A program made the translations under genes and the position numbers. This document shows, in pieces, positions 1 to 41,376 of a stretch of 64,000 nucleotides of DNA (within the stretch, counting starts at the first letter, position 1; the number at the start of each line of letters is the position of its first letter). This DNA is from an uncultured virus (IMG/VR IMGVR_UViG_3300017963_000022). Its lineage: Duplodnaviria > Heunggongvirae > Uroviricota > Caudoviricetes. The notes below the pieces were generated by a model. The model did not search any database. It was given only the letters and a program-made list of their open reading frames with translations, and was not told the DNA's origin. The stretch lies in IMG/VR virus record IMGVR_UViG_3300017963_000022. The stretch is one strand, 5' to 3'.

Positions 1-282
1 AATAGGAAAAATGAATAGAAGACTCTATTTAAAATAGGGGTAGGGTGCTGACAAAAGAAAAACTCAAATATATGAGCAAGTATTCAGATATTAGAGAAAA
101 AGGGTATAAAACAGAGATAGATATTAACTTATAGACATGAATAACGCTATAAGAGATACACCAATATACTTGGTTATATAACTAATAACAGTAGAGTAAT
201 AGTAATAGATACAGAGAAACACTCGTATATAGTATAAGTATAATAGAGATAGTCTCTTAACCCTTAGTACACTGTCCAACTA

Positions 283-690
283 GAGACTCGCCCGATCACA
301 GAGACTCACTCATTTCGGTGGCACTCGATAATTCCTAGAGACTCCGCCTGTTAGGTAGCACTCTAATAATTACGGAGACTCGCTGGAGTCCCTACCCGTA
401 TTTGCACAAGAGTCTCTCGCTCTTGAGAGAGTCTCCTTTTGTCTATATATTCTCATAAGAGTTTGGAGACTCTGAGATGGAGTCCCTTTAGGTATTCGCA
501 CGAGAGTAAGCCATTCTTGAGAGGGAGTTCTCTACTATATATTCTCTAAGAATTACAGAGACTCCGCTTAAGGAGTCCTACTTGATCTCCGCACAAGAGT
601 CTCCGGTTCGTGAGAGAGACTCGGCGGAGGAGTCCCATTCAAAATCTGCACAAGAGGTCTCCGCTACTGAGACTCCGCCCAGGGGAGAGT
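283..690. repeat. Degenerate tandem repeat array rich in GAGACTC/GAGTC motifs (about 91-bp core period)
   Basis: GAGACTC starts at 283, 301, 338, 375, 466, 558, 616, 669; recurring sub-motifs GGAGTCC, GCACAAGAG, TCTTGAGAG, CTATATATTCTC; no ORF. Confidence 0.85.
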
Positions 691-746
691 TAAAAAAAAG
701 TGAGAGCCCTTCTCCCCTGCGTATGCAATTTGGGGAGGGGGCTCTC
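691..746 (-). terminator. Rho-independent terminator
   Basis: GC-rich stem 702-746 followed on the minus strand by a T8 run, immediately after the stop of ORF 752-994. Confidence 0.85.
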
Positions 747-751
747 GTGGT

Positions 752-994
752 TTAGCCTAGGAGTGTAGGCTGTACTTCTAGGCGAATAATCCGAAGGCGA
801 TACCGAGCAGGACTCTGGAGAAGTTGATACTCTTCCAGAGCATACTGACAATATTCAGGAAACTGAAACATCTCTGCTTTGCGAATATCTCTCTGAGGTT
901 CCAGATTACCGCCTTCCTTATTCCTGGACAGGTATCCTTCGAGATCTCCGTTTGCGTCCAGGAGTTCAACAATTAAGTGGTGTTCTTTTTCCAT
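752..994 (-). CDS. Hypothetical protein (80 aa)
   Basis: AAGGAG RBS upstream of ATG; terminator follows. Confidence 0.7.
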   Translation of the reverse strand: MEKEHHLIVELLDANGDLEGYLSRNKEGGNLEPQRDIRKAEMFQFPEYCQYALEEYQLLQSPARYRLRIIRLEVQPTLLG

Positions 995-1200
995 ATTATT
1001 CTCCTTTTTAGAAAAAGTTCTGTAGTAAACTCTAATTAGCAGAGGTGGGTGTTTCTAGGGTTAGCAGTTAGCCAACTCTAGAATTTTATACAGTAGGATA
1101 GTTGATAAAACACTCATCAAGTATATAATACCGATGAGTATTACAATTTTCCAGTTAGGTAGTCTCCGGTTGGCGTTCATGGTGGTGAACTACCGGAGGG

Positions 1201-1728
1201 TTATGCCTTACTGGTTTTGGCCTTGGCAGCAGGGGTGTCTCCACCCATGAAGCCGAAGTCGAACTCCTCAACCGGTTCCACCTCAGTGGGAGCGGTCTCA
1301 GGTTCTACCAATGACCGGATATACCAGGGCTCTTGCCGTAGGGCGAACTTGCGTTCGATGTCCTCAAAGCTGACCCAATCGGACTCGTCCAGAATCGTGC
1401 CATCTTCCGCAATATTCTGAATTTGCCATTGGACGGTGCTCTGGTATTCCTTATTCACCATAGAGATGAACTGTGACGGAATACGCTTATAAGCACCTTC
1501 GAAGTAATCGGTGTCAAAGGCCGAGTTGATTGAGCGGGTCAGGAGAGCGTGGAGTTGTTGGTGCTTCCAGTTCTTAGAACCCTTTTTGATTTTGGGCTCA
1601 TTGGGTTTCCTGTCCAGGGGTTTTAATACCTGTACTGTTTTCCCATTGGACTCCAGACGGATATTAACCGTCCAGCGAGCATGTTGGATAGAAGTACTAG
1701 ACATTGTACACTCCTTTAAGTGTTCCAC
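1201..1728 (-). CDS. Hypothetical protein with acidic C-terminus (true start may be the TTG/ATG region near 1704)
   Basis: Long ORF; AAGGAG just upstream of MSSTS; hairpin at about 1163-1199 after the stop. Confidence 0.7.
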   Translation of the reverse strand: MEHLKECTMSSTSIQHARWTVNIRLESNGKTVQVLKPLDRKPNEPKIKKGSKNWKHQQLHALLTRSINSAFDTDYFEGAYKRIPSQFISMVNKEYQSTVQWQIQNIAEDGTILDESDWVSFEDIERKFALRQEPWYIRSLVEPETAPTEVEPVEEFDFGFMGGDTPAAKAKTSKA

Positions 1729-1752
1729 CTCCGCTAGTTAGAATCTACTACA

Positions 1753-1970
1753 GATAGTTTACCTACAGAACTCCAGGACAGATTATTATTGTCCTAACAT
1801 GGTAAGAATAGATTTTAATCCGAGTTCTACAGGAACATATATTCGCAGGTATAGAATATATGCAACAACGGCAAGAGATATGATTAAGGCCAATGTAACT
1901 AGCCTATCCATTAATTTTACAGGTTTCATGGTATACTCCTAACGTCCTGAAGTTCTACAGGTAAACTATC
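1753..1970 (-). repeat. 27-bp inverted repeat pair (1753-1779 / 1944-1970) enclosing a small ORF
   Basis: 24/27 Watson-Crick pairs; the 3 mismatches are all G-U wobbles in the minus-strand RNA. Confidence 0.9.
1786..1929 (-). CDS. 47-aa hydrophobic membrane peptide MKPVKLMDRLVTLALIISLAVVAYILYLRIYVPVELGLKSILTMLGQ (candidate type I toxin)
   Basis: Hand translation; AGGAG RBS 6 nt upstream; one TM segment; not in the ORF track. Confidence 0.7.
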   Translation of the reverse strand: MKPVKLMDRLVTLALIISLAVVAYILYLRIYVPVELGLKSILTMLGQ

Positions 1971-2019
1971 CGCTTTGCACTCCCTATACTTTGTTGGTGG
2001 TCTGTCCCCCCTCATCACA

Positions 2020-2042
2020 GACCGCAATCCAAGCGGTTTTTT
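2020..2042 (+). terminator. Plus-strand intrinsic terminator candidate (possible end of an antisense sRNA)
   Basis: ACCGC-AATCCAA-GCGGT followed by a T run. Confidence 0.5.
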
Positions 2043-2144
2043 GGGATTATGTGCTGATATTCTTTTTTTAAGGTTCTGGTTGTTTTTTGTTTTTTGTTCT
2101 GCTCTCTAACTGACTATAGTATACACGAAAACCACGAGATTTAA

Positions 2145-2180
2145 CATTGCAACTTCATTGCAACTTCATTGCAACTTCAT
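2145..2180. repeat. 11-bp direct repeat CATTGCAACTT x3.3, putative regulator binding site
   Basis: Perfect copies at 2145, 2156, 2167; minus-strand TATACT at 2118-2123 nearby. Confidence 0.85.
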
Positions 2181-2438
2181 GACAATTTTTTAAGGTTTAA
2201 AGAAATTTAAGGTTGGTATACAATTATACAGATAAATAAGATAAACTTTGTCCGAATACCCCCCTTATTTAGATAAATTAGACCTTTTTTGTCTGATTTG
2301 GCATCGCCTGTGTATACCTCCGACAAGGTTTACAAAAGTAAAGTCTGTATCGGTAGTAATAATACTTGTAGAGTCTCTGTCTGGTTAAATAAAAAAGAGG
2401 ATTACGGGTTAGGTAATCCTCTGCTCTTTAAAAAATTT

Positions 2439-2618
2439 TTAATTTTCGTATATTGTGACTATCGGTGGGTCAAACCTAAAGTGATCTAGCTGTATATCCC
2501 TTACTAGTTCTGCTTCACATTTAGGACACTTTATTATTAACTGTACCCAACTACTTGTTATATCTATAGATACTTCTTCAAAGTCTACTATTGAATTACA
2601 GTTTGGACAGATATTCAT
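2439..2618 (-). CDS. Small zinc-ribbon protein
   Basis: CPNC...CPKC motifs; ATG of MNICPNC at 2618. Confidence 0.65.
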   Translation of the reverse strand: MNICPNCNSIVDFEEVSIDITSSWVQLIIKCPKCEAELVRDIQLDHFRFDPPIVTIYEN

Positions 2619-2619
2619 C

Positions 2620-2766
2620 TTAACATCCTGTTGCAATTGGTAGTTTGTCTATTATACACTGGTCTGGTAGAGCAAAGCATATAATTGTCTCACTGACTAA
2701 AAAAGTTAGTATGCTTGCTAATACTATACCCACTATAATAAATAGTAATTTAAGATACCATCTCAT
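2620..2766 (-). CDS. 48-aa membrane microprotein MRWYLKLLFIIVGIVLASILTFLVSE...
   Basis: Hand translation; AAGGA RBS; TM stretch. Confidence 0.55.
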   Translation of the reverse strand: MRWYLKLLFIIVGIVLASILTFLVSETIICFALPDQCIIDKLPIATGC

Positions 2767-2883
2767 TTGTTTATCCTTTCCCATCTACCACATATCAAAC
2801 CATATTTGTTTGCTAAGTGGAGTCTCCAGTACCTATGAGTAAATCCTCTAAGTACTTTTCTTGTTTCACTACATCCTGTACAC

Positions 2884-3090
2884 TTATACATCTTCTGCCT
2901 CTATTACAACATCTTTTAGATACTCGTATTCATTATAGAGTTTATCCATGTAGTACGTAGGTACTATATAAATTTGTCCTTCGTGGTCAGCATTTTGAAA
3001 TAATTCTTCAATTGCTTTGACTACATACTTTAAGTGTCTTAGTAAACCTTCCATTCTTTCTCCTATCCAAATAGTATGAAGTAAGGCCAT
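2884..3090 (-). CDS. Hypothetical protein (start probably at the internal MEGLLR)
   Basis: ORF track; AGGAG upstream of the internal ATG. Confidence 0.55.
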   Translation of the reverse strand: MALLHTIWIGERMEGLLRHLKYVVKAIEELFQNADHEGQIYIVPTYYMDKLYNEYEYLKDVVIEAEDV

Positions 3091-3227
3091 ACTATCGAGT
3101 TAATTAATAATTTAAAATAAGAATACTCTATTTTACTACTTATTTTTACCCACATTTGCCCAATGAAGGTAACATACCAGCCAGTTATATAGAGTATTAT
3201 TACAAAAGCTATAGGACTATGTTCCAT
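3063..3227 (-). CDS. 54-aa membrane microprotein MEHSPIAFVIILYITGWYVTF...
   Basis: Hand translation; AGGTAGG RBS; hydrophobic. Confidence 0.5.
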   Translation of the reverse strand: MEHSPIAFVIILYITGWYVTFIGQMWVKISSKIEYSYFKLLINSIVWPYFILFG

Positions 3228-3349
3228 TTTAACCTACCTTTCTCGGAGCCTTCCGGTCTCAAAACATTTCAAAACTTCTTTTTGTGTGGCGAAAATACCA
3301 TGAAACTAGTATTATCTATATACAAAAGAAAGTAAAACAATATAAAACT

Positions 3350-3577
3350 TTATCCACTAACTCTCCAATAGTCAATCTTATCAAATTCTATTTGTATACT
3401 AGCTACGTCACTTTCCTCATCTGTATCCAGCGTGATATTAACTCTATCTCTGTTTCCTGTAATGCAAGAGTTTAATGCACTATCCAAACTATCAATATCT
3501 TCGGCTGACCCTGTAAAGGTCATCCTCTCTCTTGGTGGACTTGTGTCTCCCAAGAAAACAATAAGTAACCTAGCCAT
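3350..3577 (-). CDS. Hypothetical protein (75 aa)
   Basis: ORF track; same strand as its neighbours. Confidence 0.6.
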   Translation of the reverse strand: MARLLIVFLGDTSPPRERMTFTGSAEDIDSLDSALNSCITGNRDRVNITLDTDEESDVASIQIEFDKIDYWRVSG

Positions 3578-3612
3578 GTACTCATATTACTTCCTTTGGC
3601 TAATTTTAAAGC

Positions 3613-3687
3613 TTACTCCTTTTTTGGTGGTAGAATAATATTATAGACTATAAAAGCTATTATAGCAACTACACACCAGCATCCCAT
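3613..3687 (-). CDS. 24-aa membrane micropeptide MGCWCVVAIIAFIVYNIILPPKKE
   Basis: TAATG stop/start coupling with the upstream ORF. Confidence 0.4.
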   Translation of the reverse strand: MGCWCVVAIIAFIVYNIILPPKKE

Positions 3688-3845
3688 TATCTTATATCCT
3701 TCTCTATATTAAGAAAAATAAGTAGGGCAACCAACGCCAACATAATCAGTCCCGTCATTATCGGGAAATACTGAGATGTATACATAGCTACTCCTACTAC
3801 AGTTGCTCCTAATATTAGAGAATTTCTAATCTTTTTCCAACTCAT
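3687..3845 (-). CDS. 52-aa two-TM microprotein MSWKKIRNSLILGATVVGVAMY...
   Basis: Hand translation; two hydrophobic segments. Confidence 0.5.
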   Translation of the reverse strand: MSWKKIRNSLILGATVVGVAMYTSQYFPIMTGLIMLALVALLIFLNIEKDIR

Positions 3846-4107
3846 CCTTTAACTCCAGCCATATTTCTTCTTTCAGACGAATCCATGCAATCATAGCCAA
3901 ACCTGCAACCTTCAACTAAGGAATAGGAACTCCACCATTACGCCATTGATCGAAGTACCCAAGAAGAATTACCCAAATCCTTTCTTCTTGTCCTTCTTCT
4001 GGTCGTTCCTTCCAAGTGTCGCCCCATCTTCTCTGGTCGCCCTCTAGTTGTCTTTTGAGAGCTTTTGTAAATTCGGGCATATAGTCCCACACTCTATTTC
4101 TAAACAT
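3826..4107 (-). pseudogene. Helical protein (possibly MazG/dNTP-diphosphohydrolase-like) interrupted by an in-frame TAG at 3916-3918
   Basis: Frame continues ...GGVPIP*LKVAGLAMIAWIRLKEEIWLELKDELEKD; GGAGG RBS. Confidence 0.5.
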
Positions 4108-4116
4108 CCTTACCTC

Positions 4117-4254
4117 CTATCTAATTCTAATTACTTGTCCATGCTCCGTAGCATCGAGCACATGTCCACTAGATTTAAAAAGATGGGCTAGCTTGGAAAA
4201 CAAGTTTCGATACTTCCAAGCTGTCCCATCTAAATCGAACGATATTCTTTTCAT
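4117..4254 (-). pseudogene. 45-aa HAD-family N-terminal fragment MKRISFDLDGTAW...
   Basis: HAD motif I (DxDGT); far too short for a full HAD domain. Confidence 0.5.
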
Positions 4255-4340
4255 CTAACCTGTGTACTTTCCTTTCTCTGTTCTAATAATTCAATCGTCC
4301 CCGCTATAATCATCAGAACTCCGACTAATCCTATTATCAT
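4251..4340 (-). CDS. 29-aa membrane micropeptide MIIGLVGVLMIIAGTIELLEQRKESTQVR
   Basis: Hand translation; ATGA overlap with the next ORF. Confidence 0.45.
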   Translation of the reverse strand: MIIGLVGVLMIIAGTIELLEQRKESTQVR

Positions 4341-4347
4341 TTTTATT

Positions 4348-4443
4348 CTACTTTATAGCTTGTACAAATATCAAAAGTAGCGTTGCCACTATTAGTAAAG
4401 TATAAGAATACTTTTCTATTAGTGGTTGCTCATCTTTATCCAA
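4348..4443 (-). CDS. 31-aa membrane micropeptide (TTG start) MDKDEQPLIEKYSYTLLIVATLLLIFVQAIK
   Basis: AGGAGG RBS at the end of the caspase gene; TM stretch. Confidence 0.45.
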   Translation of the reverse strand: MDKDEQPLIEKYSYTLLIVATLLLIFVQAIK

Positions 4444-4450
4444 ATACAGT

Positions 4451-5338
4451 TTACCTCCTATGAAGAAAACCGTCTAAAACGTCCACCAGCCATGCTAGAA
4501 TCTCTCGGATGAATGAAAGTATCCAACAAGCGTCTCCAGGCAGTTCTGGTGGGTCTGGTGGCTGTGTGGGCGGTTCTGGAGCAACTTCTGTAGCTTCGAA
4601 TAAAACTCGTTGCTTCAGTTCTTCTTTTCCTTCTAATTGAGGTGTTTGAGGATAAGAAGTGCTTGGTAAATTTTCTCTAAGCTTTGTATAAAAATCTTCC
4701 CAAGAAGCTCCAAGGTTTTCATACATTGTAGTTAAAGCAAAGTACGTCATAGCACCATTATACTTTCCACCGAAGTAGGCATCGTAAGCATACTCTGAGT
4801 CACTACTTCCAGTTAGAAGCAGTTCTGTCATTTCTTCTTCTTGTAAAAGGTTTTTTCGTAAAACCTTTCTGTCTACTTGATGGGTTTGTACAAATTTAGG
4901 TTTAGGTGTTTGACCAAATGCCATAACTCTTGTTGATGTTCCACTAAAGCAAGAATCAATGACAAGGTATGCAGTAGCATCTGGATGAAGTCTATCTAGA
5001 ATAGAACGTAGTTCATCGTCAATAATATATGTATCATATACATATAAAGCCTCATCATAGAAGTCTTCTTCGTCATTGTTTTCATCAGAAACTTGTGTCC
5101 CATGTCCTGAATAAGTAAAAACAACAACATCTCCCTCAGTGGCAGAAGATACTAACCAATCTAGTTCAGCTAGTATGTTCTCTTTAGTTGCAGAGCTATC
5201 TAATAAAACTCTGGTTTCGTTAAATTCAAACTCATTTGCAAGTAACCAAGCCCAATCATTTGCATCGTTAACACAACCGTTCAGATCATTAATTGTTCCT
5301 GGGTAGTCATTTATCCCAACACATACAGCTAATTTCAT
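4451..5338 (-). CDS. Caspase/metacaspase-family protease (peptidase C14) with Pro-rich linker and amphipathic C-terminal helix
   Basis: AVCVGINDY...LNGCVNDA, YSGHG (catalytic His), IDSCFSG (catalytic Cys), QTPQL. Confidence 0.92.
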   Translation of the reverse strand: MKLAVCVGINDYPGTINDLNGCVNDANDWAWLLANEFEFNETRVLLDSSATKENILAELDWLVSSATEGDVVVFTYSGHGTQVSDENNDEEDFYDEALYVYDTYIIDDELRSILDRLHPDATAYLVIDSCFSGTSTRVMAFGQTPKPKFVQTHQVDRKVLRKNLLQEEEMTELLLTGSSDSEYAYDAYFGGKYNGAMTYFALTTMYENLGASWEDFYTKLRENLPSTSYPQTPQLEGKEELKQRVLFEATEVAPEPPTQPPDPPELPGDACWILSFIREILAWLVDVLDGFLHRR

Positions 5339-24695: not shown

Positions 24696-25391
24696 TTATT
24701 TACTCCAATATTGTCTAAAAGATTCTATCTCTTCTTCAGTATAGAAATGTTTTACATATTTTAAATTGTACACCCTATCAAGAAACTCTGTAGGATACTC
24801 TAAATTTTTAAGTTGCGAATATTTCTCACCAATATATTTTGCATCCTTCAAACTTCTTTCGTGAACCATTTGAATATTCCAAATTCCTAACAGTTTACGA
24901 AGAGCAGTCGGTAAAACTCTATTGGCATCTTCTAGTCTTAGAATTAAAAGTCTATGTTTACCTACTTTGTAAATACTATATCCTCGTTTATGATTGAACT
25001 TTTTTTCAAAGGGGTTGAAATCAAACGTGGTCATTAGTTCTTTTTCAAACCACAGATCAGGATAATGTATGTTATATTTTTCTAAGAACAGAGCTTGTAG
25101 TTCTTCTGCCGTTTCTGTCCTTCCTGATACACCATATCTTATAGAACTAAACATAAAGGCAGAAAGATTTCTTGCCATTGGTTCTCTAATAGGTGTAATA
25201 ATTTTAAGGGGAGGGACTTCTCCCGATTTAATTATCCTTAACACTTTTGGCTTGCTTGTTGGAAACTCTATTTCTGGAACTTCTCCAGATAGCCAATGAG
25301 CATGAAGTGTCTCCACTCCACTATTGTAAAGTGCTCGGTTTATAGAATTGCTACCTACTCTACCCATTTGGTAAAGAAATGTAGTCTTCAA
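24696..25391 (-). CDS. Sulfotransferase-like protein (putative capsular polysaccharide synthesis family)
   Basis: YQMGRVGSNS 5'-PSB-like loop; IREPMARNLS 3'-PB-like motif. Confidence 0.7.
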   Translation of the reverse strand: MKTTFLYQMGRVGSNSINRALYNSGVETLHAHWLSGEVPEIEFPTSKPKVLRIIKSGEVPPLKIITPIREPMARNLSAFMFSSIRYGVSGRTETAEELQALFLEKYNIHYPDLWFEKELMTTFDFNPFEKKFNHKRGYSIYKVGKHRLLILRLEDANRVLPTALRKLLGIWNIQMVHERSLKDAKYIGEKYSQLKNLEYPTEFLDRVYNLKYVKHFYTEEEIESFRQYWSK

Positions 25392-25394
25392 TTT

Positions 25395-25937
25395 TTAGCT
25401 TCCTAAGAATGTAATCTCCCAAGTAATTTCGAGAGTGTCTGAAGAACCAACATCAACAGCAGGTGAAATCTGTGCATACGCCATTGTATCTGTACCGTTG
25501 CCCAATAGAGCTTCGTCAATACCTGTAGCGTTAAGATCTCCAGCTTCGAAAGTTGATTTATAAACAATTACATTATCATCTGCGGCGGCCCAAGCTCCTT
25601 TAGTTTGAGGGTAAGAAGCATCCATAGCTTCATCTGAGCCTGACTGAGATACAAGCGCATCTACTGTTTTGGCTTCTGTAGTAAACCCTGTACCAACACC
25701 GATCACAGCATTAGTGTTATCCAGCTTGGTTCTTTCTGTAGTGTCTTGGTGAAGGTCTGCGATAAGGGCATCGCCTTCATTAGTCACGATGTTATGGTTC
25801 GCCATAATCATATCGGAACCAGGGAGTCTCAGGAGTTTTTGCCACCAGTTAGGAGCCTGTTTTTTAATTTGTCCATCAGGCCCACGAACGATTGCTCTAA
25901 CGCTTCCGCTGATAAGCATTTTTTCTCTTTTAATCAT
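25395..25937 (-). CDS. Virion structural protein (probable fibre attachment)
   Basis: HNIVTNEG...IGVGTG...EALL...SDTLEITWEI pattern; synteny. Confidence 0.55.
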   Translation of the reverse strand: MIKREKMLISGSVRAIVRGPDGQIKKQAPNWWQKLLRLPGSDMIMANHNIVTNEGDALIADLHQDTTERTKLDNTNAVIGVGTGFTTEAKTVDALVSQSGSDEAMDASYPQTKGAWAAADDNVIVYKSTFEAGDLNATGIDEALLGNGTDTMAYAQISPAVDVGSSDTLEITWEITFLGS

Positions 25938-27195
25938 TTTGTTCTCCTAATTGTAAGGTTTCAATAAAGAGTTTTTTCCAACTCTTTGCTATATTACTCC
26001 ATAAATATTTTTCTGAAGTAAACTTTTCTAGACCTTTTTGTCCTAGAGATTTTCTAAGTTCTTCGTCATTGTACAATGTTTCCAAGTGCTCAGTTAATCC
26101 CATCGGGTCTGGATAGTCTCTATCAAGAAGAGTTTCTGTGTCAAAGACTGTTTGCTTTATAGGGATAAGCAACCCACAATCTTCAAAAAGTTCTGCACAA
26201 GCAGTATGATTTGGAACCACTTGAGGTACTCCAGAAACAGCGTGTTCGGTTGCTGTGAGTCCCCAACCTTCTCCTAAAGAAGTATTAATTCCAACATCTG
26301 TTACATTATAAATCTTGTTTAGTTTTTCAATTGGAATTTGTTGTACCAATGGTTCAAGATTTGTAACAATAATTCTTTGATGTAATTTTAAATCCCAAGG
26401 TTTATAAAGACCCTTATCTTCAAATCTTTTTTCTATGCGCTCTACCAACTGGAAAAGATTCCAACCTGCATCTTGTACTCCTGCATGGTGATAGTATCTT
26501 ACTGTTGGTGGTTTTTCTAAAGCAAAATGAGCAAACGCCAATAAAGAAAGATCGAGTCTTTTTCTTGGTTGATTTCTATTTGCATTTAGAACAACAAATG
26601 AATTGTTAATGTCAAGTCTTTTTTTAATTGCTTCAAAGATTTCTTCTTTTGCTTCTTGTCTATCCTCTATTTTGTAAAAGTCTTTCAGATTTGTTCCGTG
26701 AGGGATTACCTCTATTTTTGATTCTAATTCTGGAGAAGCGTCCAAAACTGTTTTCTTTCCAAACTCTGTATATACTACAGCTTTAGAAACAATATCAAAA
26801 TGCTGGAACCAAATTAGTTGATACCCATAGCCATCTACAGGAAAATAAACAACAATTTTAGGTAGGTCTTTTCCTGCATATATTTGTTTAATGTTTTCAA
26901 GGTATACATCTACAATCCAAATATCATTTAGAATAAAAATAATATCTGGTTTTACTTTATGTACAAGTTCCTCTATACGGGCAACTCCATACATATCTTG
27001 AAATCCTGTTCTTGGTGTAGCCGCAGGATAAATATGGTGAGTGAAGTTGTGAGGGTCTCCATGATAGTTGATAGCTAAGTGGTGAACCTCAAATTCATCT
27101 TCTGGAAGTTCTTGGATAATATTGTGATTTACTGTTCCAAATCCAGTTGGAGTAACTCCGTCCCCTATCCAGAGGATTTTAATTTTGTCTTTCAT
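25930..27195 (-). CDS. GT-B glycosyltransferase (GT4-like)
   Basis: NRNQPRKR, GEGWGLTATE...GVPQV, IPHG motifs. Confidence 0.88.
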   Translation of the reverse strand: MKDKIKILWIGDGVTPTGFGTVNHNIIQELPEDEFEVHHLAINYHGDPHNFTHHIYPAATPRTGFQDMYGVARIEELVHKVKPDIIFILNDIWIVDVYLENIKQIYAGKDLPKIVVYFPVDGYGYQLIWFQHFDIVSKAVVYTEFGKKTVLDASPELESKIEVIPHGTNLKDFYKIEDRQEAKEEIFEAIKKRLDINNSFVVLNANRNQPRKRLDLSLLAFAHFALEKPPTVRYYHHAGVQDAGWNLFQLVERIEKRFEDKGLYKPWDLKLHQRIIVTNLEPLVQQIPIEKLNKIYNVTDVGINTSLGEGWGLTATEHAVSGVPQVVPNHTACAELFEDCGLLIPIKQTVFDTETLLDRDYPDPMGLTEHLETLYNDEELRKSLGQKGLEKFTSEKYLWSNIAKSWKKLFIETLQLGEQND

Positions 27196-35454: not shown

Positions 35455-35467
35455 AAAATCCTCCAGG

Positions 35468-35542
35468 CTGGCACGGGTGGAGTTGAACCACCATCCTCTC
35501 GGTTAACAGCCGAGTGCTTTCTTCCAGTTGAGCTACGTGCCA
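35468..35542 (-). tRNA. tRNA-Asn(GTT)
   Basis: Cloverleaf; CTCGG-CTGTTAA-CCGAG. Confidence 0.92.
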
Positions 35543-35550
35543 GTGTACTA

Positions 35551-36504
35551 TTATTCATTTTCTAAACAAGTTAAAGTAAAACATTGTTTACCATTACCAT
35601 CTCTTAAATCCCAATAGGGATTAAGTCCATTAGGATAATAAATAGGAGATGGGTCAATCTCTTCTCGTTGGAACTCAACCACATTTTCCAACCAGTAGTT
35701 AGCAAAATAAACAGGTCGTTGAAGTATTGCTACATCTTCATTCGGTTTACTCTCACCGTACCACACCTCAACAGTTTGTTCTTTCCATCTTACCACATTC
35801 CAGCTTTCGTAGTCCCCCTCGACAAAACCCCACTCTAAAGCGGTTTCAAAGTCAACCTCAACGACCTGCTGGTTTATCGCAATATGGGTGTACATATCGG
35901 CACGGCGAGAACAGTCTACAACTAAGTACGGGCCAGTCCACTCTCCACCTGATCTTCTTAACCAAACAGTATCTCCTATGTTGGCAGGACTTGGTACAGC
36001 TACACCTCCAAGGTACTCATCAGAACGATATGCTAAATCAAACATTTCTATAGAACGCCATTTAGCAGTAGCTCTCATTAATCCTGGATTATAATAAACT
36101 GCTGTACCATAAACATATTGAGGAGAACGTGTAAACCAAACTTCATTAGTTACAAGTCCAGGTACACAGAAACCCCAATCGTCAACAAACCCTGTAAGAG
36201 GACTGTTGTCGTACATGTTATATTCTGTACAAAAACTTCTGTGATCTACAGGAATAGCTTCTGGTGTAGCGAAGGTAGGCAAAAGTACCCTTTCGGGAAG
36301 TTGCATATTAAGGTCTTCTGCTACTTCAAAAACTTCCTGTTCCACCTCTGGAAAAGTAACTTCCAAGTCTGTTAACAAAAGTTCTTGATTTACTTGTAAA
36401 GGTTCTTGCATTGCAGAGGCTAACGCTTGGTTCGCCTCTACATTTAGAAACAACATAGCCACAATTACAAGTGCTTGGGCTAAGTCAGATATTATTTTTT
36501 TCAA
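35551..36504 (-). CDS. Secreted protein with an RlpA-like double-psi beta-barrel domain
   Basis: Signal peptide; GTAVYY...IGDTVWL...GPYLVVDC...VEVDFETA. Confidence 0.55.
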   Translation of the reverse strand: MKKIISDLAQALVIVAMLFLNVEANQALASAMQEPLQVNQELLLTDLEVTFPEVEQEVFEVAEDLNMQLPERVLLPTFATPEAIPVDHRSFCTEYNMYDNSPLTGFVDDWGFCVPGLVTNEVWFTRSPQYVYGTAVYYNPGLMRATAKWRSIEMFDLAYRSDEYLGGVAVPSPANIGDTVWLRRSGGEWTGPYLVVDCSRRADMYTHIAINQQVVEVDFETALEWGFVEGDYESWNVVRWKEQTVEVWYGESKPNEDVAILQRPVYFANYWLENVVEFQREEIDPSPIYYPNGLNPYWDLRDGNGKQCFTLTCLENE

Positions 36505-37210
36505 AGGTTTTCTCCATTTCCTTGAGTCTTTTCTTTGCTATGGCGAAGGCGAATCTTTCAATCTCAATTCCAATAAAGTGTCTATTATGATTGATTGCTG
36601 ATACTCCAGTTGTACCGGAACCCATAAAAGGGTCAAGAACAATATCGTCTTCTTCTGTCGTAGCGAGAATAATCCTATCCAAAATAGCCAAAGGCTTTTG
36701 CCAAACAAAGCCTTTACCATTTGGTAGTTTTATCCGTTCCTTAGACATGGTATGGAAATTCCCAATGTCTTCCCAAACATCTGTAGGAATTTTCGTTGTT
36801 CTTCCAGAAGGATTAAAACCCTTTCCTGTTGTTTTCTTAGGAATAGAAATCCTTTCAGGAAAAAACTTATATTCTTTAGTTTTAGAATACCAAAGAATAT
36901 CATCATGTTTTCTAGCAAATCTTCGTCTACTGCGACCACCCCAATCGTAAGGCCAAATTATCCAGTTGACAAAATTCTCTTTGCCGAAAAGACTATCAAG
37001 ATATACTTTTAATTCTGCAACACTTCTATAGTCTGTTTGAACAAACAGACTTCCAGCGTCTTTCAAAACATCCCGACATAGGTCTGTCCAAGAAAAGTCG
37101 AAATCATCGTACATCATATCAGCATAGATAAGATCAACTCTTGTATCAGAGTGCCAAAACATTTCTGTGAGTACCTTACGGTTATCTCCTAGAATAAGGT
37201 TAACACTCAC
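36485..37210 (-). CDS. N4-C/N6-A DNA methyltransferase (beta class) with variant DMMY motif IV
   Basis: LIYADMMY; QKP; VLDPFMGSGTT. Confidence 0.85.
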   Translation of the reverse strand: MSVNLILGDNRKVLTEMFWHSDTRVDLIYADMMYDDFDFSWTDLCRDVLKDAGSLFVQTDYRSVAELKVYLDSLFGKENFVNWIIWPYDWGGRSRRRFARKHDDILWYSKTKEYKFFPERISIPKKTTGKGFNPSGRTTKIPTDVWEDIGNFHTMSKERIKLPNGKGFVWQKPLAILDRIILATTEEDDIVLDPFMGSGTTGVSAINHNRHFIGIEIERFAFAIAKKRLKEMEKTFEKNNI

Positions 37211-37300
37211 TGACTTCCTCTTTCCTTCTCACTTCCACAGACTGTACAACGCCACCCTTTGTTACACTTGTTATGAACTCGTTTTCCTCTCCCATGTAAC

Positions 37301-37483
37301 TTATCTTGTGTTGGATGTATACATGTGCATTTTAGTATCATCTTCCTTTCCTTTTTGAACTAGTCCCTCATTGGGAACTAACTTATAAACAACTCCACAA
37401 AGGATGCAACAATACTCCAGAGTTCCATCCTTTAATAATTTGAAATTTAAACATTCCTTACAAACAGGACATTTCTTTTTCAT
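37301..37483 (-). CDS. Small zinc-ribbon protein
   Basis: CPVC...CILC. Confidence 0.5.
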   Translation of the reverse strand: MKKKCPVCKECLNFKLLKDGTLEYCCILCGVVYKLVPNEGLVQKGKEDDTKMHMYTSNTR

Positions 37484-37484
37484 A

Positions 37485-37557
37485 AGCTGACGAAGAGAAT
37501 TGAACTCTTAACCTATTCTTTACAAGAGAATTGCTCTACCGATTGAGCTACGCCAGC
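37485..37557 (-). tRNA. tRNA-Thr(TGT)
   Basis: ATTCT-CTTGTAA-AGAAT. Confidence 0.92.
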
Positions 37558-37562
37558 AAAGG

Positions 37563-37636
37563 AGCGTGTACAGGGAATCGAACCCTGCTCACTTGGTTGG
37601 AAGCCAAGCACCATCGTCCAGATCGGTCTTACACGC
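37563..37636 (-). tRNA. tRNA-Gly(TCC)
   Basis: CTTGG-CTTCCAA-CCAAG; A at position 8. Confidence 0.88.
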
Positions 37637-37643
37637 TAACTGT

Positions 37644-37907
37644 TTATCTATTTTCCCCTGTCCAAAGATCATTAGAAACAAAGTATTTTCCTAAATCATG
37701 GTTAGCACATTTGACAACTGCTGAAACCGAGGCGTAGATAGTTCTATCAGATTCAGAGAGCCACAGTTTAAACTGGTGTGCTCCTCGTCTTACTGCTTCA
37801 TTAACTGCCTCTTCAGCAATTGCAATGAACTGCTCACTAATTTCTGCATCCTCGTTCTCTGCAAGGGTGTATTCTGTAAAATAAAAACTCATGGTACTCT
37901 CCTCCAA
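37644..37907 (-). CDS. Hypothetical protein
   Basis: ORF track; GGAGGAG RBS before MSFYF. Confidence 0.6.
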   Translation of the reverse strand: MEESTMSFYFTEYTLAENEDAEISEQFIAIAEEAVNEAVRRGAHQFKLWLSESDRTIYASVSAVVKCANHDLGKYFVSNDLWTGENR

Positions 37908-38188
37908 ACATCCGTATCAACTTCATTAACACCGTATAGAAAGTTGATTACATCTTGTAATTCTCGTTGAGCAAGAGGTGGAAATCGGTAAACTCTAATT
38001 AGTGTCTTACGTCCAAAGAGGTCTTTGGATGTTACAACTTCATCACTAGTATTATGCCGTCTGAGAATTTCTACAAGCTCGACAACTGCCTTTCTAATAT
38101 TTTCTTTTAATGCCCACCTTTGTTTATCCCAATTATCTGCTTTATTTTTTAACTCATTATACTCTTGTTCTGATAAGACATACTTCAT
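37889..38188 (-). CDS. Hypothetical protein
   Basis: AAGGAG RBS. Confidence 0.65.
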   Translation of the reverse strand: MKYVLSEQEYNELKNKADNWDKQRWALKENIRKAVVELVEILRRHNTSDEVVTSKDLFGRKTLIRVYRFPPLAQRELQDVINFLYGVNEVDTDVWRRVP

Positions 38189-38205
38189 TTATATCTCCTT
38201 TCCAG

Positions 38206-38277
38206 AGCCCCCAACTGGAATCGAACCAATATCAACAGCTTAGAAGGCTGTAGCTCTGTCCATTGAGCTATGGGGGC
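38206..38277 (-). tRNA. tRNA-Arg(TCT)
   Basis: ACAGC-CTTCTAA-GCTGT. Confidence 0.92.
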
Positions 38278-38282
38278 ATAGT

Positions 38283-38588
38283 CTATTTCTTAGCAATAGA
38301 CCAATACTTCTTCCATACTTTTGTACGAAACTCTCTATCAAACCCTGCCTTTTCAAGAGCACGGGTTAGAGCTTTCTTTCTTCCTTCTGCCTTTTCAAAA
38401 GTATCTTCTATTGAACAAGCGGTAACTCCTGTCGCCACCAGATCATACTCATCATCTACAAGTACATCAATCCAACAAGCTGTGGTGTGTGTAATGAAAG
38501 CCTCTTGTCCAAACTTACGAACAATCTTTTTTGGCTCTTCAAAAGCAACGTGTCCAAAAGCAAATCTATATTTATCAACAGTGAACAT
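38283..38588 (-). CDS. Phage hypothetical protein (CSxEDxFxKxxGRKKALxRA motif)
   Basis: Motif typical of phage small proteins; RBS. Confidence 0.7.
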   Translation of the reverse strand: MFTVDKYRFAFGHVAFEEPKKIVRKFGQEAFITHTTACWIDVLVDDEYDLVATGVTACSIEDTFEKAEGRKKALTRALEKAGFDREFRTKVWKKYWSIAKK

Positions 38589-38626
38589 TTTTATTCCTTT
38601 CCTTTTATTTGTCTAGTTAGTAAAGG

Positions 38627-38697
38627 CGACCCATAAGAGAATCGAACTCTTGATACCAACTCGACAGGCTGGTGTTTTACCTCTAAACTAATGGGCC
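38627..38697 (-). tRNA. tRNA-Asp(GTC)
   Basis: CCAGC-CTGTCGA-GTTGG. Confidence 0.9.
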
Positions 38698-39092
38698 TAA
38701 ATCATATCTCCATTTTGTCTTCTACCTTTGCCTTGCTCATTCAAAGAACCAAATGTTTGTGTAAGTGAATGACAGTTGGGACAAAGAACTTGAAGATTTT
38801 CTGGTTTATTGTTTCTATAATTTCCATCTATATGATGAATTTGTAAAGGAGCTTTATTAGAATATTTGTTTATTTCTGACCAACCACACACCTCACACTT
38901 GTATTGAGTAGCCTCTAATAAATAATCTCTAATTATTTTTGAAAGCTCCCCCCTTTTTCCACGAATACCATCAAATTCTCCGGCTAACCAATTTTGTATT
39001 TTTTCACTTCTTTGATAGATTTGTTGGCATTTTCCAGAACAATATTTTCTTCCTCTATTTAATTTTCCTTTACAGTTTTTACATTTACTCAT
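38697..39092 (-). CDS. HNH endonuclease (homing-type)
   Basis: CEVCG...LQIHHIDGNYRNNKPENLQVLCPNCH. Confidence 0.9.
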   Translation of the reverse strand: MSKCKNCKGKLNRGRKYCSGKCQQIYQRSEKIQNWLAGEFDGIRGKRGELSKIIRDYLLEATQYKCEVCGWSEINKYSNKAPLQIHHIDGNYRNNKPENLQVLCPNCHSLTQTFGSLNEQGKGRRQNGDMI

Positions 39093-39105
39093 AATTTTTA
39101 AATTG

Positions 39106-39191
39106 TGACGGTGATAGGATTCGAACCTACTGTGTTTCTATTGTATCGGGGTTACAGCCCGATGCCACTCCACCATCGTGACCGCACCGTC
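39106..39191 (-). tRNA. tRNA-Tyr(GTA)
   Basis: TCGGG-CTGTAAC-CCCGA; long variable region. Confidence 0.85.
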
Positions 39192-39194
39192 AGG

Positions 39195-39262
39195 CAGGGC
39201 GTGAAGGCATCGAACCTCCTTTAGGAGTTTTGGAGACTCCTTTCTTGCCGAAAGAACGCCCT
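39195..39262 (-). tRNA. tRNA-Trp(CCA) with a miniature D-arm
   Basis: AGGGCGT/ACGCCCT acceptor; AGGAGT-CTCCAAA-ACTCCT; 68 nt. Confidence 0.75.
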
Positions 39263-39265
39263 ATA

Positions 39266-39337
39266 AAGCCTCAGTGAGAATCGAACTCACCATTAACGAT
39301 TTTGCAGATCGCTCCCTAGCCGATTGGGTTTGAGGCT
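39266..39337 (-). tRNA. tRNA-Cys(GCA)
   Basis: GCGAT-CTGCAAA-ATCGT; U73. Confidence 0.85.
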
Positions 39338-39441
39338 ATTTTCTTTTTCATCTAATCGGCTTGCCCACCATCTAAGTAACTCCAATGCTTCTGGTGAATT
39401 TCCACACTCATCAATCCACACTAGAGGGGGTGGTATACCTT

Positions 39442-39645
39442 TTAGTTTACGTGTCCTTTTGTCCATCCTAAACCTTTCATTACTACAGTGGTTGGTTCAT
39501 ACTTTCTAAAAAATCTACCATTACATTGTTCTATTCCTTCAGGAAGTTTAACATGTGGTTTATAGTAGTAAAAGGGAGTGACTCTATGAGTTGTACTGTA
39601 AAATTCATAGCCACAGGTTTCACATTTATATGTATAAGTAGACAT
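39442..39645 (-). CDS. FmdB-like zinc-ribbon protein
   Basis: MSTYTYKCETCGYEF...MKGLGW; start trimmed to avoid tRNA-Ser; AAGGAG RBS. Confidence 0.65.
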   Translation of the reverse strand: MSTYTYKCETCGYEFYSTTHRVTPFYYYKPHVKLPEGIEQCNGRFFRKYEPTTVVMKGLGWTKGHVN

Positions 39646-39665
39646 AGCTTCTCCTTTCATTTCAG

Positions 39666-39750
39666 CGGAGACGGTAGGAATCGAACCTACGCTCCCGTGC
39701 GGAAGACTGTGGGTTAGCAACCCAATGCATTACCTCTCTGCCACATCTCC
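39666..39750 (-). tRNA. tRNA-Ser(GCT)
   Basis: TGGG-TTGCTAA-CCCA; long variable arm. Confidence 0.88.
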
Positions 39751-39941
39751 TAGTAATCCAAAAGAATATAACCGTCAACAGCTATACATGCTTCTTCGAT
39801 AGAGTACGTACCTGCTAAGATTTTCTCTAGTACTTCTTCAGTTCCCATATTGTCATCACCAGCATCAATACGGCGAAAGTGCTCGATTCTATTAATAAGT
39901 CTGCGAAAGTATTCAACATCAATTCTTTTGTAGTCTTGCAT
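39750..39941 (-). CDS. Hypothetical protein
   Basis: AAGGAG RBS. Confidence 0.6.
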   Translation of the reverse strand: MQDYKRIDVEYFRRLINRIEHFRRIDAGDDNMGTEEVLEKILAGTYSIEEACIAVDGYILLDY

Positions 39942-39963
39942 ACTGACTCCTTTCCTAAACCGA

Positions 39964-40035
39964 TACCCCTGCGTGGAGTCGAACCACGTTCTCCGGTTTA
40001 AAAGACCGATGCTTCACCACTAAAGCTTCAGAGGT
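39964..40035 (-). tRNA. tRNA-Lys(TTT)
   Basis: TCGGT-CTTTTAA-ACCGG. Confidence 0.9.
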
Positions 40036-40037
40036 AA

Positions 40038-40268
40038 TTAAAATTCTTTAACAAAAAATAAATTACCAGGATAAAATTTATCATACTCGCCTTTATAGTA
40101 GGTAGCAGAATTTTCCCATTCCCATCCATTTCTTTCAAACATCTTTATTATGGAAGAATGGTGTAAATAAAAAGCTCGTATACGTAACACTACTTCTAAA
40201 TTACCAGAGAAATTTATTCCAAAACTAATTTCAGAATCCAAAACCTGTCCTGACCTAATCTTTAACAT
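40038..40268 (-). CDS. Hypothetical protein
   Basis: ORF track. Confidence 0.5.
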   Translation of the reverse strand: MLKIRSGQVLDSEISFGINFSGNLEVVLRIRAFYLHHSSIIKMFERNGWEWENSATYYKGEYDKFYPGNLFFVKEF

Positions 40269-40271
40269 CTG

Positions 40272-41009: not shown

Positions 41010-41013
41010 TTAT

Positions 41014-41373: not shown

Positions 41374-41376
41374 GTA

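What the first reader, a model, noticed from the sequence alone, without database searches (positions are those of the whole stretch)
1753..2042. Type I toxin-antitoxin-like module: membrane peptide locked in a 27-bp RNA duplex, with a candidate antisense sRNA
Seen: a 47-aa TM peptide gene (1786-1929, AGGAG RBS) is flanked by arms 1944-1970 and 1753-1779. In the minus-strand RNA these pair over all 27 positions, with every mismatch a G-U, which points to selection on the RNA. On the plus strand an extended -10 (TGGTATACT, 1929-1937) and a terminator (2020-2042) define a ~100-nt antisense RNA covering the 5' arm. It contains a C-rich-loop hairpin (1997-2025) that is mutually exclusive with the terminator. 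Known: hok/sok and AapA/IsoA use 5'-3' long-range mRNA pairing plus antisense control. Inference: a type I TA system, or an RNase III-excised regulatory cassette.
Basis: partly seen in the sequence, partly recalled or inferred. Interest (0 to 1): 0.7.

Follow-up and report, generated by a model that had tools for sequence, protein, structure and literature searches.

The report
RNA clamp around phage membrane-peptide gene
In an uncultured tailed phage, the two ends of the message for a tiny membrane-peptide gene can pair into an unusually long double-stranded RNA stem that probably sets this message apart for cutting or stabilisation, but no relatives or RNA data exist to prove it.

Summary
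The inverted repeat is real. Arms 1753-1779 and 1944-1970 match at 24 of 27 positions. All three mismatches are G-U on the minus (coding) strand. With G-U allowed, the minus-strand helix is 31 bp without interruption (1973-1943 with 1780-1750, about -48 kcal/mol). The next longest in the 64 kb is 18 bp, and 0 of 30 shuffles reached 31.

The helix encloses exactly one AGGAG ribosome-binding site and one 47-codon, single-helix membrane-peptide ORF. It sits in a one-strand, tRNA-rich, siphovirus-like metagenomic phage.

The plus-strand "antisense sRNA" is weak:
- Its -10 motif occurs at chance frequency in the window.
- Its 5-bp terminator is outcompeted by the neighbouring hairpin (predicted occupancy 0.08).
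- The candidate RNA folds no better than shuffles.

The ribosome-binding site lies outside the long stem, unlike in hok or AapA toxin messages.

My best reading (0.4) is a long-range double-stranded RNA clamp, a likely RNase III substrate, that separates the peptide message from its leader and from the downstream 167-aa gene. Rivals are a DNA-level repeat without RNA function (0.25), a type I toxin-antitoxin module (0.12), and a clamp that acts without cleavage (0.1).

No homologous locus, sequence variant or RNA run could be obtained, so conservation and expression are untested. Interest is moderate.

The parts
1943..1973 (-). 5' arm of the long-range RNA helix (27-nt core 1944-1970; 31 nt with G-U/C-G extensions)
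1750..1780 (-). 3' arm of the helix (core 1753-1779). It starts 5 nt after the stop codon and ends 45 nt before the ATG of the next gene.
1936..1940 (-). AGGAG ribosome-binding site, 6 nt before the ATG and 3 nt outside the helix
   Evidence: SD-like motifs precede 39 of 59 ORFs checked
1786..1929 (-). 47-codon ORF for a peptide with one transmembrane helix (residues 10-28), followed by a tandem TAA TAA stop
   Evidence: no homologue other than itself; no family match
1822..1833 (-). Copy of the core of the 5' arm inside the ORF (11-nt exact direct repeat 1823-1833 = 1951-1961). It can pair with the 3' arm when the 5' arm is absent.
   Evidence: 7.6e-4 exact copies expected; the pairing energy is not exceptional
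1997..2025 (+). 9-bp hairpin with an 11-nt C-rich loop. It has one G-U pair on the plus strand, which is an A-C mismatch on the minus strand.
2021..2042 (+). Weak terminator-like element: a 5-bp stem plus a T-run, whose 5' half is taken up by the hairpin above
   Evidence: not listed
1929..1937 (+). Extended -10-like motif TGGTATACT, the complement of the spacer between the ribosome-binding site and the ATG
   Evidence: motif at chance frequency in the window
1201..1704 (-). Downstream 167-aa gene of unknown function, with its own AAGGAG site. Its GC content (0.50) differs from the phage's (0.38).
2145..2177 (.). Three tandem 11-nt repeats (CATTGCAACTT) in the 350-nt non-coding region upstream of the cassette; candidate protein-binding sites
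2396..2422 (-). Terminator-like hairpin plus T-run that ends the upstream (lysis and small-gene) transcription unit

Best explanation
The inverted repeat forms the two strands of a 31-bp helix in the sense (minus-strand) transcript. The helix ties together the sequence just upstream of the ribosome-binding site and the sequence just downstream of the stop codon of a 47-codon membrane-peptide gene. This closes off a 224-nt cassette inside a longer message that continues into the 167-aa gene.

A perfect helix of this length is a substrate for the double-strand-specific RNase III of the host. Cleavage on both strands would release the peptide message from its roughly 130-400-nt leader and from the downstream cistrons. 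The released message would keep a short terminal stem, so the peptide message would have its own lifetime and translation rate.

Shown: the helix exists in the sequence; it is asymmetric between strands; it sits in the non-coding spacers around exactly one ribosome-binding site plus ORF; its interior is not otherwise structured.

Inferred: that the region is transcribed as one RNA, that RNase III cuts the helix, and in which direction expression changes.
For: - The helix is 31 bp without interruption on the minus strand only. It has 6 G-U pairs, and the duplex energy is -48.0 kcal/mol against -36.0 for the plus-strand arms.
- It is far outside the background: the next helix is 18 bp, and 0 of 30 shuffles reached 31, with a maximum of 24.
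- Folding z-score for 1740-1985 is -5.3 on the minus strand and -2.9 on the plus strand.
- Both arms lie in non-coding spacers. The 5' arm ends 3 nt before AGGAG, and the 3' arm starts 5 nt after the stop codon.
- All long ORFs with family matches lie on the minus strand, so the helix is on the transcribed sense strand.
- The interior 1781-1942 folds no better than shuffles (z = 0.09). This looks like an mRNA with a closing clamp, not a structured non-coding RNA. No Rfam family matches.
- A terminator at 2422-2396 ends the upstream operon, and no terminator follows the 3' arm, so the peptide and the 167-aa gene are probably co-transcribed.
- That about two helical turns of double-stranded RNA suffice for RNase III, and that RNase III stems flank rRNAs and T7 cistrons, is recalled knowledge and comes from no call.
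Against: - There is no RNA evidence of any kind. No sequencing run that holds the stretch is on record as RNA.
- There is no homologous locus, so no conservation or covariation test was possible.
- The three runs that hold the stretch carry it without any sequence difference, so there is no population variation to read.
- The G-U argument is modest. Three mismatches, two of them adjacent, give a probability of roughly 0.005-0.15 depending on the null.
- The host, and therefore its RNase III specificity, is unknown.
- No convincing sigma-70 promoter was found on the minus strand between 2396 and 1973. The best is 9 of 12 at 2388-2359.
Confidence: 0.4

Rival explanations
1. DNA-level repeat without RNA function. 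The arms would be the remnant of an inverted duplication or template-switch event, or the terminal repeats of a small inserted cassette that brought in the peptide gene. The pairing in RNA would then be a by-product.
For: - The repeat is equally visible in DNA.
- The mismatches are all transitions, the commonest mutations, and two are adjacent.
- The cassette is unique and its genes are orphans.
- The surrounding piece up to 2264 ends at an assembly branch point and has about twice the depth of the rest in one run, so this end of the genome is mosaic.
- Phages do carry ultra-small elements with terminal inverted repeats: MPME1, 439 bp (passages read in PMC3029335).
Against: - There is no second copy in the window, in viral contigs, in 185,579 species genomes (24-nt arm pattern), in the phage records or in the plasmid records.
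- No target-site duplication is visible at the arm ends (read).
- No transposase, integrase or invertase family matched among the 58 phage ORFs scanned.
- The cassette's GC content (0.366) is that of the phage (0.378), not of a foreign insert.
- All three mismatches happen to preserve pairing on the sense strand.
Confidence: 0.25
2. Type I toxin-antitoxin-like module. The peptide would be a membrane toxin whose message is held inert by the 5'-3' pairing. A roughly 100-nt plus-strand RNA (about 1944-2042) would pair with the 5' arm and leader and trigger degradation.
For: - The peptide has the size and layout of such toxins: 47 aa, a basic N-terminus, one transmembrane helix.
- The cassette (224 nt) is close in size to the 253-nt AapA1 message, which also has a 5'-3' long-distance interaction (PMC5416894 passages).
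- The ribosome-binding site is predicted to pair with a sequence inside the ORF (pairing probability 0.74-0.98), as for the metastable anti-SD hairpins of aapA3 (PMC6733600 passages).
- An 11-nt copy of the 5' arm inside the ORF offers an alternative partner for the 3' arm.
- An extended -10-like motif sits at the right distance from the arm.
- Hairpin 1997-2025 has a G-U pair only on the plus strand.
Against: - The ribosome-binding site is not part of the long-range helix.
- The predicted local pairing of the ribosome-binding site is no better than chance; the interior z-score is 0.09.
- A perfect 31-bp helix would itself be cut by RNase III, which does not suit a stable, inert toxin-message store (inference).
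- No promoter-like site lies directly before the 5' arm and no terminator follows the 3' arm, so the message ends probably do not coincide with the arms.
- The -10 motif is at chance frequency (11 found, 7.5 expected).
- The terminator has a probability of 0.08, and the candidate sRNA has z = -0.21.
- The pairing of the internal copy with the 3' arm is not exceptional: 51 of 2000 shuffles and 30 of 392 real segments do as well.
- No toxin family matches.
- The genome shows no integrase and so looks virulent; plasmid-style addiction has no obvious role there.
Confidence: 0.12
3. RNA clamp that works without cleavage. The helix would limit ribosome loading, because it ends 3 nt from the ribosome-binding site, or would protect both ends of the cistron from exonucleases. 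Each terminating ribosome must melt the inner turn of the helix, which would couple the fate of the message to its translation.
For: The same structural evidence as for the best explanation. The helix lies within the usual ribosome footprint on both sides of the ORF (distances; footprint sizes recalled).
Against: Nothing distinguishes this from the cleavage model in sequence. Long perfect double-stranded RNA is normally cut in bacteria (recalled).
Confidence: 0.1
4. Chance repeat with no function at either level.
For: The scan reads very many windows, so rare events are expected to turn up somewhere. There is only one instance and no conservation data.
Against: Expected 6e-4 times per window for the Watson-Crick repeat. 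0 of 30 shuffles reached 31 bp, with a maximum of 24. In addition, the arms bracket one small gene exactly.
Confidence: 0.05

Closest known systems
RNase III processing stems that bracket a functional RNA (the stems flanking 16S and 23S rRNA; R sites between cistrons of phage T7 early mRNA). Recalled; the T7 and RNase III papers were seen only as reference-list lines of PMC8708148.
   Same: A long double-stranded stem formed by sequences on either side of, or between, units of a polycistronic transcript, on the sense strand. It is long enough for cleavage on both strands.
   Different: Here the stem encloses a single protein-coding mini-cistron of 47 codons. The helix is perfect, without the internal loops typical of T7 sites. 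Cleavage is untested and the host is unknown.
5'-3' long-distance interaction of type I toxin mRNAs (hok; aapA1/IsoA1 and aapA3/IsoA3 of Helicobacter pylori; PMC5416894 and PMC6733600, passages read)
   Same: A small membrane-peptide ORF in a message of about 220-250 nt whose two ends pair. There is a possible anti-SD inside the ORF and a possible cis-antisense RNA over the leader.
   Different: The ribosome-binding site lies outside the long-range helix. The helix is far longer and perfect. The message ends are not shown to coincide with the arms. The antisense promoter and terminator are at chance level or weak. The peptide is in no toxin family. The carrier looks like a virulent phage, not a chromosome, plasmid or prophage.
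Ultra-small phage mobile elements with terminal inverted repeats (mycobacteriophage MPME1/2; PMC3029335, passages read)
   Same: A short DNA segment in a phage genome, bounded by inverted repeats and carrying a small ORF.
   Different: MPMEs are 439 bp, occur as identical copies at different sites in related phages, and leave a 6-bp footprint. This cassette is 218-224 bp, is single-copy wherever I could search, and shows no footprint or duplication.
Stem-bracketed small peptide genes noted earlier in this scan (for example e1-7455161, e1-4053192, e1-1301460; AI notes, not checked here)
   Same: A long inverted repeat that encloses one small peptide gene, with any mismatch falling as G-U on the mRNA. 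Those notes also read it as an RNase III-like clamp.
   Different: Those cases are bacterial, and several were reported with compensatory changes in relatives. This one is in a phage and has no relatives to test. No sequence similarity to any earlier window was found.

Membership tests
Type I toxin-antitoxin system (hok/sok, aapA/IsoA type) | Small hydrophobic toxin ORF (under about 60 aa, one transmembrane helix) | tested here: met
   47 aa; best 19-residue hydropathy window is residues 10-28, mean 2.64
Type I toxin-antitoxin system (hok/sok, aapA/IsoA type) | Sequence membership in a described toxin family | tested here: not met
   No Pfam hit at E up to 5. The only NCBIfam hit is an antiporter subunit at E = 0.035, far below its cut-off. 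No PHROG. No homologue other than itself among 5.8 billion clusters.
Type I toxin-antitoxin system (hok/sok, aapA/IsoA type) | 5'-3' long-distance pairing of the toxin mRNA that sequesters the ribosome-binding site | tested here: not met
   Long-distance pairing is present (31 bp), but AGGAG at 1940-1936 lies 3 nt outside it. The predicted local anti-SD pairing sits in an interior that folds no better than shuffles.
Type I toxin-antitoxin system (hok/sok, aapA/IsoA type) | Antisense RNA gene with its own promoter and terminator | tested here: inconclusive
   The -10-like motif is present but at chance frequency (11 found, 7.5 expected). The terminator stem is -7.0 kcal/mol against -13.1 for the competing hairpin, probability 0.08. 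The candidate RNA has z = -0.21. No RNA data.
Type I toxin-antitoxin system (hok/sok, aapA/IsoA type) | Toxicity of the peptide and rescue by the RNA | not testable with these tools
   Needs expression in a host
RNase III processing stem | Double-stranded RNA of about two helical turns or more on the transcribed strand (threshold recalled) | tested here: met
   31 bp without interruption on the minus strand, -48 kcal/mol; all genes with family matches lie on the minus strand
RNase III processing stem | Cleavage by RNase III in vivo or in vitro | not testable with these tools
   No RNA run holds the stretch; host unknown; no RNase III family among the 58 phage ORFs scanned against Pfam
RNase III processing stem | Stem kept by compensatory changes in relatives | not testable with these tools
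   No related locus could be fetched. The three runs that hold the stretch show no differences.
Miniature mobile element with terminal inverted repeats (MITE / MPME-like) | Several copies in the same or related genomes | tested here: not met
   Only the two arms match in the window. 0 matches in viral contigs, 0 in species genomes, none in the phage or plasmid records.
Miniature mobile element with terminal inverted repeats (MITE / MPME-like) | Target-site duplication or footprint at the ends | tested here: not met
   The flanks ...CTACTACA | arm and arm | CGCTTTGC share no direct repeat (read)
Invertible DNA switch | Both orientations present in the population, and a site-specific recombinase | tested here: inconclusive
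   No strand-changing joints in the contigs of the 4 runs laid, but contigs drop rare variants. No recombinase family among the ORFs scanned; about a quarter of the genome lies outside the window.
Any Rfam RNA family | Match to a covariance model | tested here: not met
   Window 1-3000, both strands, E up to 1: the only hit is a sub-threshold preQ1-II match at 992-1093 (24.7 bits against a gathering score of 47), outside the locus

The most novel reading that the evidence does not exclude
A virulent, tRNA-rich phage carries a hok/AapA-style RNA-controlled toxin module with three parts. The membrane-peptide message is locked by a 31-bp 5'-3' clamp. An in-ORF copy of the 5' arm gives the 3' arm a second partner, making a three-way RNA switch. 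A cis-antisense RNA with a C-rich kissing loop opens the clamp and hands the message to RNase III. The phage would use this to time membrane damage or to exclude competing phages. It would be a type I-like system in a lytic phage, with a new toxin and a new locking geometry.
Probability: 0.12. Interest if true: 0.7.

Novelty: new variant of a known kind. Interest (0 to 1): 0.4.

Why it matters
If the clamp is functional, it shows that phages can package the message of one tiny membrane protein as a separate, double-strand-closed unit inside an operon. That would be a simple way to give a potentially harmful peptide its own dose and timing. It would also add a phage case to the stem-bracketed peptide genes that this scan keeps finding in bacteria, pointing to a general and so far unnamed RNA device. 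The helix is short, self-contained and easy to test with arm mutations and compensating mutations in a reporter. Such clamps could also serve as insulators in engineered operons. If it is only a DNA-level repeat, the finding is ordinary.

Tried and rejected
**Relatives of the locus**
- The 175-aa and 167-aa protein queries and their alignment found no related locus in viral contigs.
- In metagenome contigs the only hit was L001. It is the same phage, 100% identical over 2922 nt.
- Species genomes gave nothing.
- The arm patterns gave 0 matches in viral contigs and 0 in species genomes.
- A degenerate pattern for a conserved stretch of the 167-aa protein gave 0 matches in viral contigs.
- The caspase-like neighbour gave nothing in viral contigs.
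- An alignment of 7 family members was too divergent to search with.
- The 167-aa family has 6 representative clusters among 1.84 billion proteins. All are on short metagenome contigs whose DNA I could not reach.

**Public records**
- The phage records gave no DNA or protein match for the locus. The terminase finds one record at 25% identity. The plasmid records gave nothing.

**RNA evidence and reads**
- No RNA holder is listed among the 6 runs.
- Contigs of 4 runs laid on 1-5000 showed no differences and no joints.

**Readings considered and dropped**
- T7-like promoter: TATAGGGAG lies at 1979-1992, but there is only one exact copy in the window.
- Upstream ORF 2027-1926, whose stop overlaps the peptide ATG as ATGA: it has a TTG start and no ribosome-binding site, so it is not supported.
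- Structured non-coding RNA: the interior has z = 0.09 and no Rfam match.
- Retron, integron attC, CRISPR mini-array and archaeal bulge-helix-bulge: rejected on anatomy. There is no reverse transcriptase among the 58 ORFs scanned against Pfam, the repeat is inverted and not direct, and the helix has no bulges.
- Metastable switch through the in-ORF copy of the arm: the exact 11-mer is unexpected (7.6e-4), but the pairing energy is matched by 51 of 2000 shuffles and 30 of 392 real segments.

**Protein function**
- The ESM Atlas gave no usable lead for the peptide or the 167-aa protein.
- A PDB profile search gave nothing.
- The 80-aa neighbour has no homologue.
- No complex prediction was sent, because no binding claim is made.

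**Own genome and earlier notes**
- No whole genome is held for this window.
- The scan has no earlier notes for this genome or this sequence.

Full report
**Context.** The window is part of a tailed-phage genome from metagenomes.
- Every long ORF with a family match lies on the minus strand.
- In order of transcription the genes are: DNA polymerase, helicase and recombinase genes; a sugar-biosynthesis cluster; 26 tRNA genes; terminase, portal, tape-measure and tail genes; and a GH25 endolysin with a caspase-like peptidase.
- No whole genome is held for it.
- It has no DNA match among 50,697 phage records. Its terminase finds a single record at 25% identity.
- Shine-Dalgarno-like motifs precede 39 of the 59 ORFs I checked, so the host uses such sites.
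- After the lysis region come several small genes, then a terminator-like hairpin at 2422-2396, then about 350 nt of non-coding DNA with three tandem 11-nt repeats.
- The finding follows, then a 167-aa gene, two small ORFs, and another terminator-like site at 716-702.

**The observation.**
- The arms are 1753-1779 and 1944-1970. They are 27 nt long, 24 positions are complementary, and 164 nt lie between them.
- The three mismatches are all transitions. On the minus strand they read G-U; on the plus strand they read A-C.
- With G-U pairs allowed, the minus-strand helix runs 31 bp without interruption (1973-1943 with 1780-1750) and has 6 G-U pairs.
- The next longest such helix anywhere in the window is 18 bp. 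The plus strand has none of 14 bp or more at this place.
- In 30 dinucleotide-preserving shuffles of the window, the longest helix had a mean of 18.6 and a maximum of 24.
- The Watson-Crick repeat alone is expected 6e-4 times per window.
- Duplex energy is -48.0 kcal/mol for the minus-strand arms and -36.0 for the plus-strand arms.
- Folding 1740-1985 gives z = -5.3 on the minus strand and -2.9 on the plus strand.
- The arm sequence is unique in the window, and this is the top inverted repeat of 13 found in it.

**What the helix encloses.**
- The 5' arm ends 3 nt before AGGAG (1940-1936), which lies 6 nt before the ATG at 1929.
- The ORF has 47 codons and ends in TAA TAA. The 3' arm starts 5 nt after the stop codon and ends 45 nt before the ATG (1704) of the 167-aa gene, which has its own AAGGAG site.
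- The peptide has a basic N-terminus, one strongly hydrophobic stretch (residues 10-28) and a 19-residue tail.
- It has no homologue other than itself among 5.8 billion protein clusters.
- It matches no family in Pfam, PHROGs or NCBIfam and has no tblastn match in the phage records.
- The interior of the cassette (1781-1942) folds no better than shuffles (z = 0.09), and no Rfam family matches.
- The cassette therefore looks like an ordinary small mRNA with one extraordinary closing stem.

**How strong the "selection on RNA" argument is.** It is modest.
- From the base counts, the chance that three random mismatches are all G-U on the minus strand is about 0.005.
- If the mismatches arose as transitions from a perfect repeat, the chance is about 0.04-0.15.
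- Two of the three are adjacent and could be a single event.
- The four extra pairs that extend the helix from 27 to 31 bp are mostly G-U and add little.
- The better argument is position. Both arms lie in non-coding spacers on the sense strand and bracket exactly one ribosome-binding site plus ORF.

**The plus-strand antisense RNA.**
- TGGTATACT is at 1929-1937. However, the motif TGNTATAMT occurs 11 times in the window against 7.5 expected, with 14 of 100 shuffles doing as well. Here it is simply the complement of the spacer between the ribosome-binding site and the ATG.
- The terminator is a 5-bp stem (2021-2037, -7.0 kcal/mol) followed by a T-run. Its whole 5' half is also the 3' half of the 9-bp hairpin 1997-2025 (-13.1 kcal/mol), so its ensemble probability is 0.08. 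The terminator scan did not list it.
- The candidate RNA 1940-2046 has z = -0.21.
- One point in its favour: the hairpin has a G-U pair on the plus strand that is an A-C mismatch on the minus strand.
- No run on record as RNA holds the stretch, so expression cannot be judged.

**Comparison with type I toxin messages.**
- In passages I read from PMC5416894 and PMC6733600, the AapA1/AapA3 full-length message of about 250 nt is kept inert by a 5'-3' long-distance interaction in which the ribosome-binding site is sequestered. It is activated by 3' trimming and is then caught by an antisense RNA and RNase III. Transient anti-SD hairpins act during transcription.
- Here the cassette is similar in size (224 nt) and has a 5'-3' interaction, but the ribosome-binding site lies outside it.
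- A local pairing of the ribosome-binding site with a sequence inside the ORF is predicted (probability 0.74-0.98 in all constructs), but it sits in an interior that is not unusually structured.
- An exact 11-nt copy of the 5' arm lies inside the ORF (1823-1833 = 1951-1961; 7.6e-4 expected). When the 5' arm is removed, the 3' arm is predicted to pair with this copy.
- The energy of that pairing is matched by 51 of 2000 shuffled interiors and by 30 of 392 real segments, so I treat it as a lead only.
- No promoter-like site lies just before the 5' arm and no terminator follows the 3' arm. The message ends probably do not coincide with the arms, as they do in hok and AapA.
- A perfect 31-bp helix would itself be an RNase III substrate, which does not suit a stable, inert store of toxin message (inference).

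**DNA-level readings.**
- The arms have no other copy in the window, in 2.9 million viral contigs, in one genome each of 185,579 species, or in the phage and plasmid records.
- There is no target-site duplication at the arm ends.
- No transposase, integrase or invertase family matched among the 58 ORFs scanned against Pfam.
- The contigs of four runs show no inversion joints, though contigs drop rare forms.
- The cassette's GC content (0.366) matches the phage's (0.378). The downstream 167-aa gene is at 0.498.
- A multi-copy mobile element such as the 439-bp mycobacteriophage MPME1 (PMC3029335 passages) is therefore not supported. A one-off inverted duplication cannot be excluded.

**Comparative evidence, the decisive missing piece.**
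- The 167-aa protein has one 70%-identical relative and five more distant representative clusters among 1.84 billion proteins. All are on short metagenome contigs.
- None of their DNA could be fetched.
- The only locus retrieved, L001, is the same phage, 100% identical over 2922 nt.
- The three runs that hold the stretch carry it without a single difference.
- Neither conservation nor covariation could be tested.

**Verdict.**
- Most likely (0.4): a sense-strand double-stranded RNA clamp that marks the peptide cistron for RNase III-type processing and gives it a fate of its own.
- Rivals: a DNA-level repeat without RNA function (0.25), a type I toxin-antitoxin-like module (0.12), a clamp that acts without cleavage (0.1), and chance (0.05).
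- Earlier AI notes of this scan describe similar stems around small peptide genes in bacteria. I did not test them, and they count as leads only.

Noticed in passing
window 240-720: A non-coding region with three to four repeat units of about 93 nt, built from GAGACTC / GAGTCTC / GGAGTCC motifs and small hairpins. It lies just past the last terminator of the one-strand gene array. It may be a replication, packaging or genome-end structure.
   Followed up: partly
window 2145-2177: Three exact tandem copies of the 11-nt unit CATTGCAACTT (one helical turn apart). They are unique in the window and lie about 170-230 nt upstream of the peptide gene. They look like binding sites for a regulator of this transcription unit.
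   Followed up: partly
window 2235-2264 and L001: In two runs the assembled contigs break at the same 30-mer, which ends in a run of six C. In one run the 2,596-nt piece from 332 nt before the window start to 2264 has about twice the depth (23.2) of the rest of the phage (12.5). The piece that carries the cassette may therefore be shared by two genome contexts or be repeated.
   Followed up: partly
window 1102-1129 (+): A near-consensus sigma-70 promoter-like site, TTGATA-16-TATAAT (11 of 12), on the non-coding strand. It lies inside the doubtful 39-aa ORF 1061-1180, which has no ribosome-binding site. It would drive transcription antisense to the 167-aa gene and the cassette, towards the weak terminator at 2042.
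   Followed up: no
window 1201-1704 (-): The 167-aa protein belongs to a tiny orphan family: 6 representative clusters among 1.84 billion proteins. The family has a conserved acidic-aromatic motif near the C-terminus (VEEFDFGF in this protein) and a basic K-T-S-K tail. It has no Pfam, PDB or Atlas lead. Its GC content (0.50) differs from the phage's (0.38).
   Followed up: partly
window 1926-2027 (-): A 33-codon frame (TTG start, no ribosome-binding site) runs through the hairpin and the 5' arm and stops at a TGA that overlaps the peptide's ATG (ATGA). If it were translated, ribosomes would melt the clamp and could couple into the peptide gene, as mok does for hok. This is unsupported.
   Followed up: partly
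window 35466-44354: A cluster of 26 tRNA genes on the coding strand, with an HNH endonuclease ORF (38697-39092) among them.
   Followed up: no
window 44893-52154 and 24696-27195: The phage carries a sugar-modification set: NeuB-like synthase, cytidylyltransferase, histidine phosphatase, RraA/aldolase-like protein, phosphodiesterase, sulfotransferase, an NKWYS capsule-synthesis-like protein and a glycosyltransferase. This suggests synthesis of a nonulosonic-acid-type sugar.
   Followed up: no
window 4451-5338 (-): A caspase-family (Peptidase_C14, E = 5.6e-27) protein is encoded directly after the GH25 endolysin gene and overlaps its end. This is an unusual partner in a lysis region.
   Followed up: no
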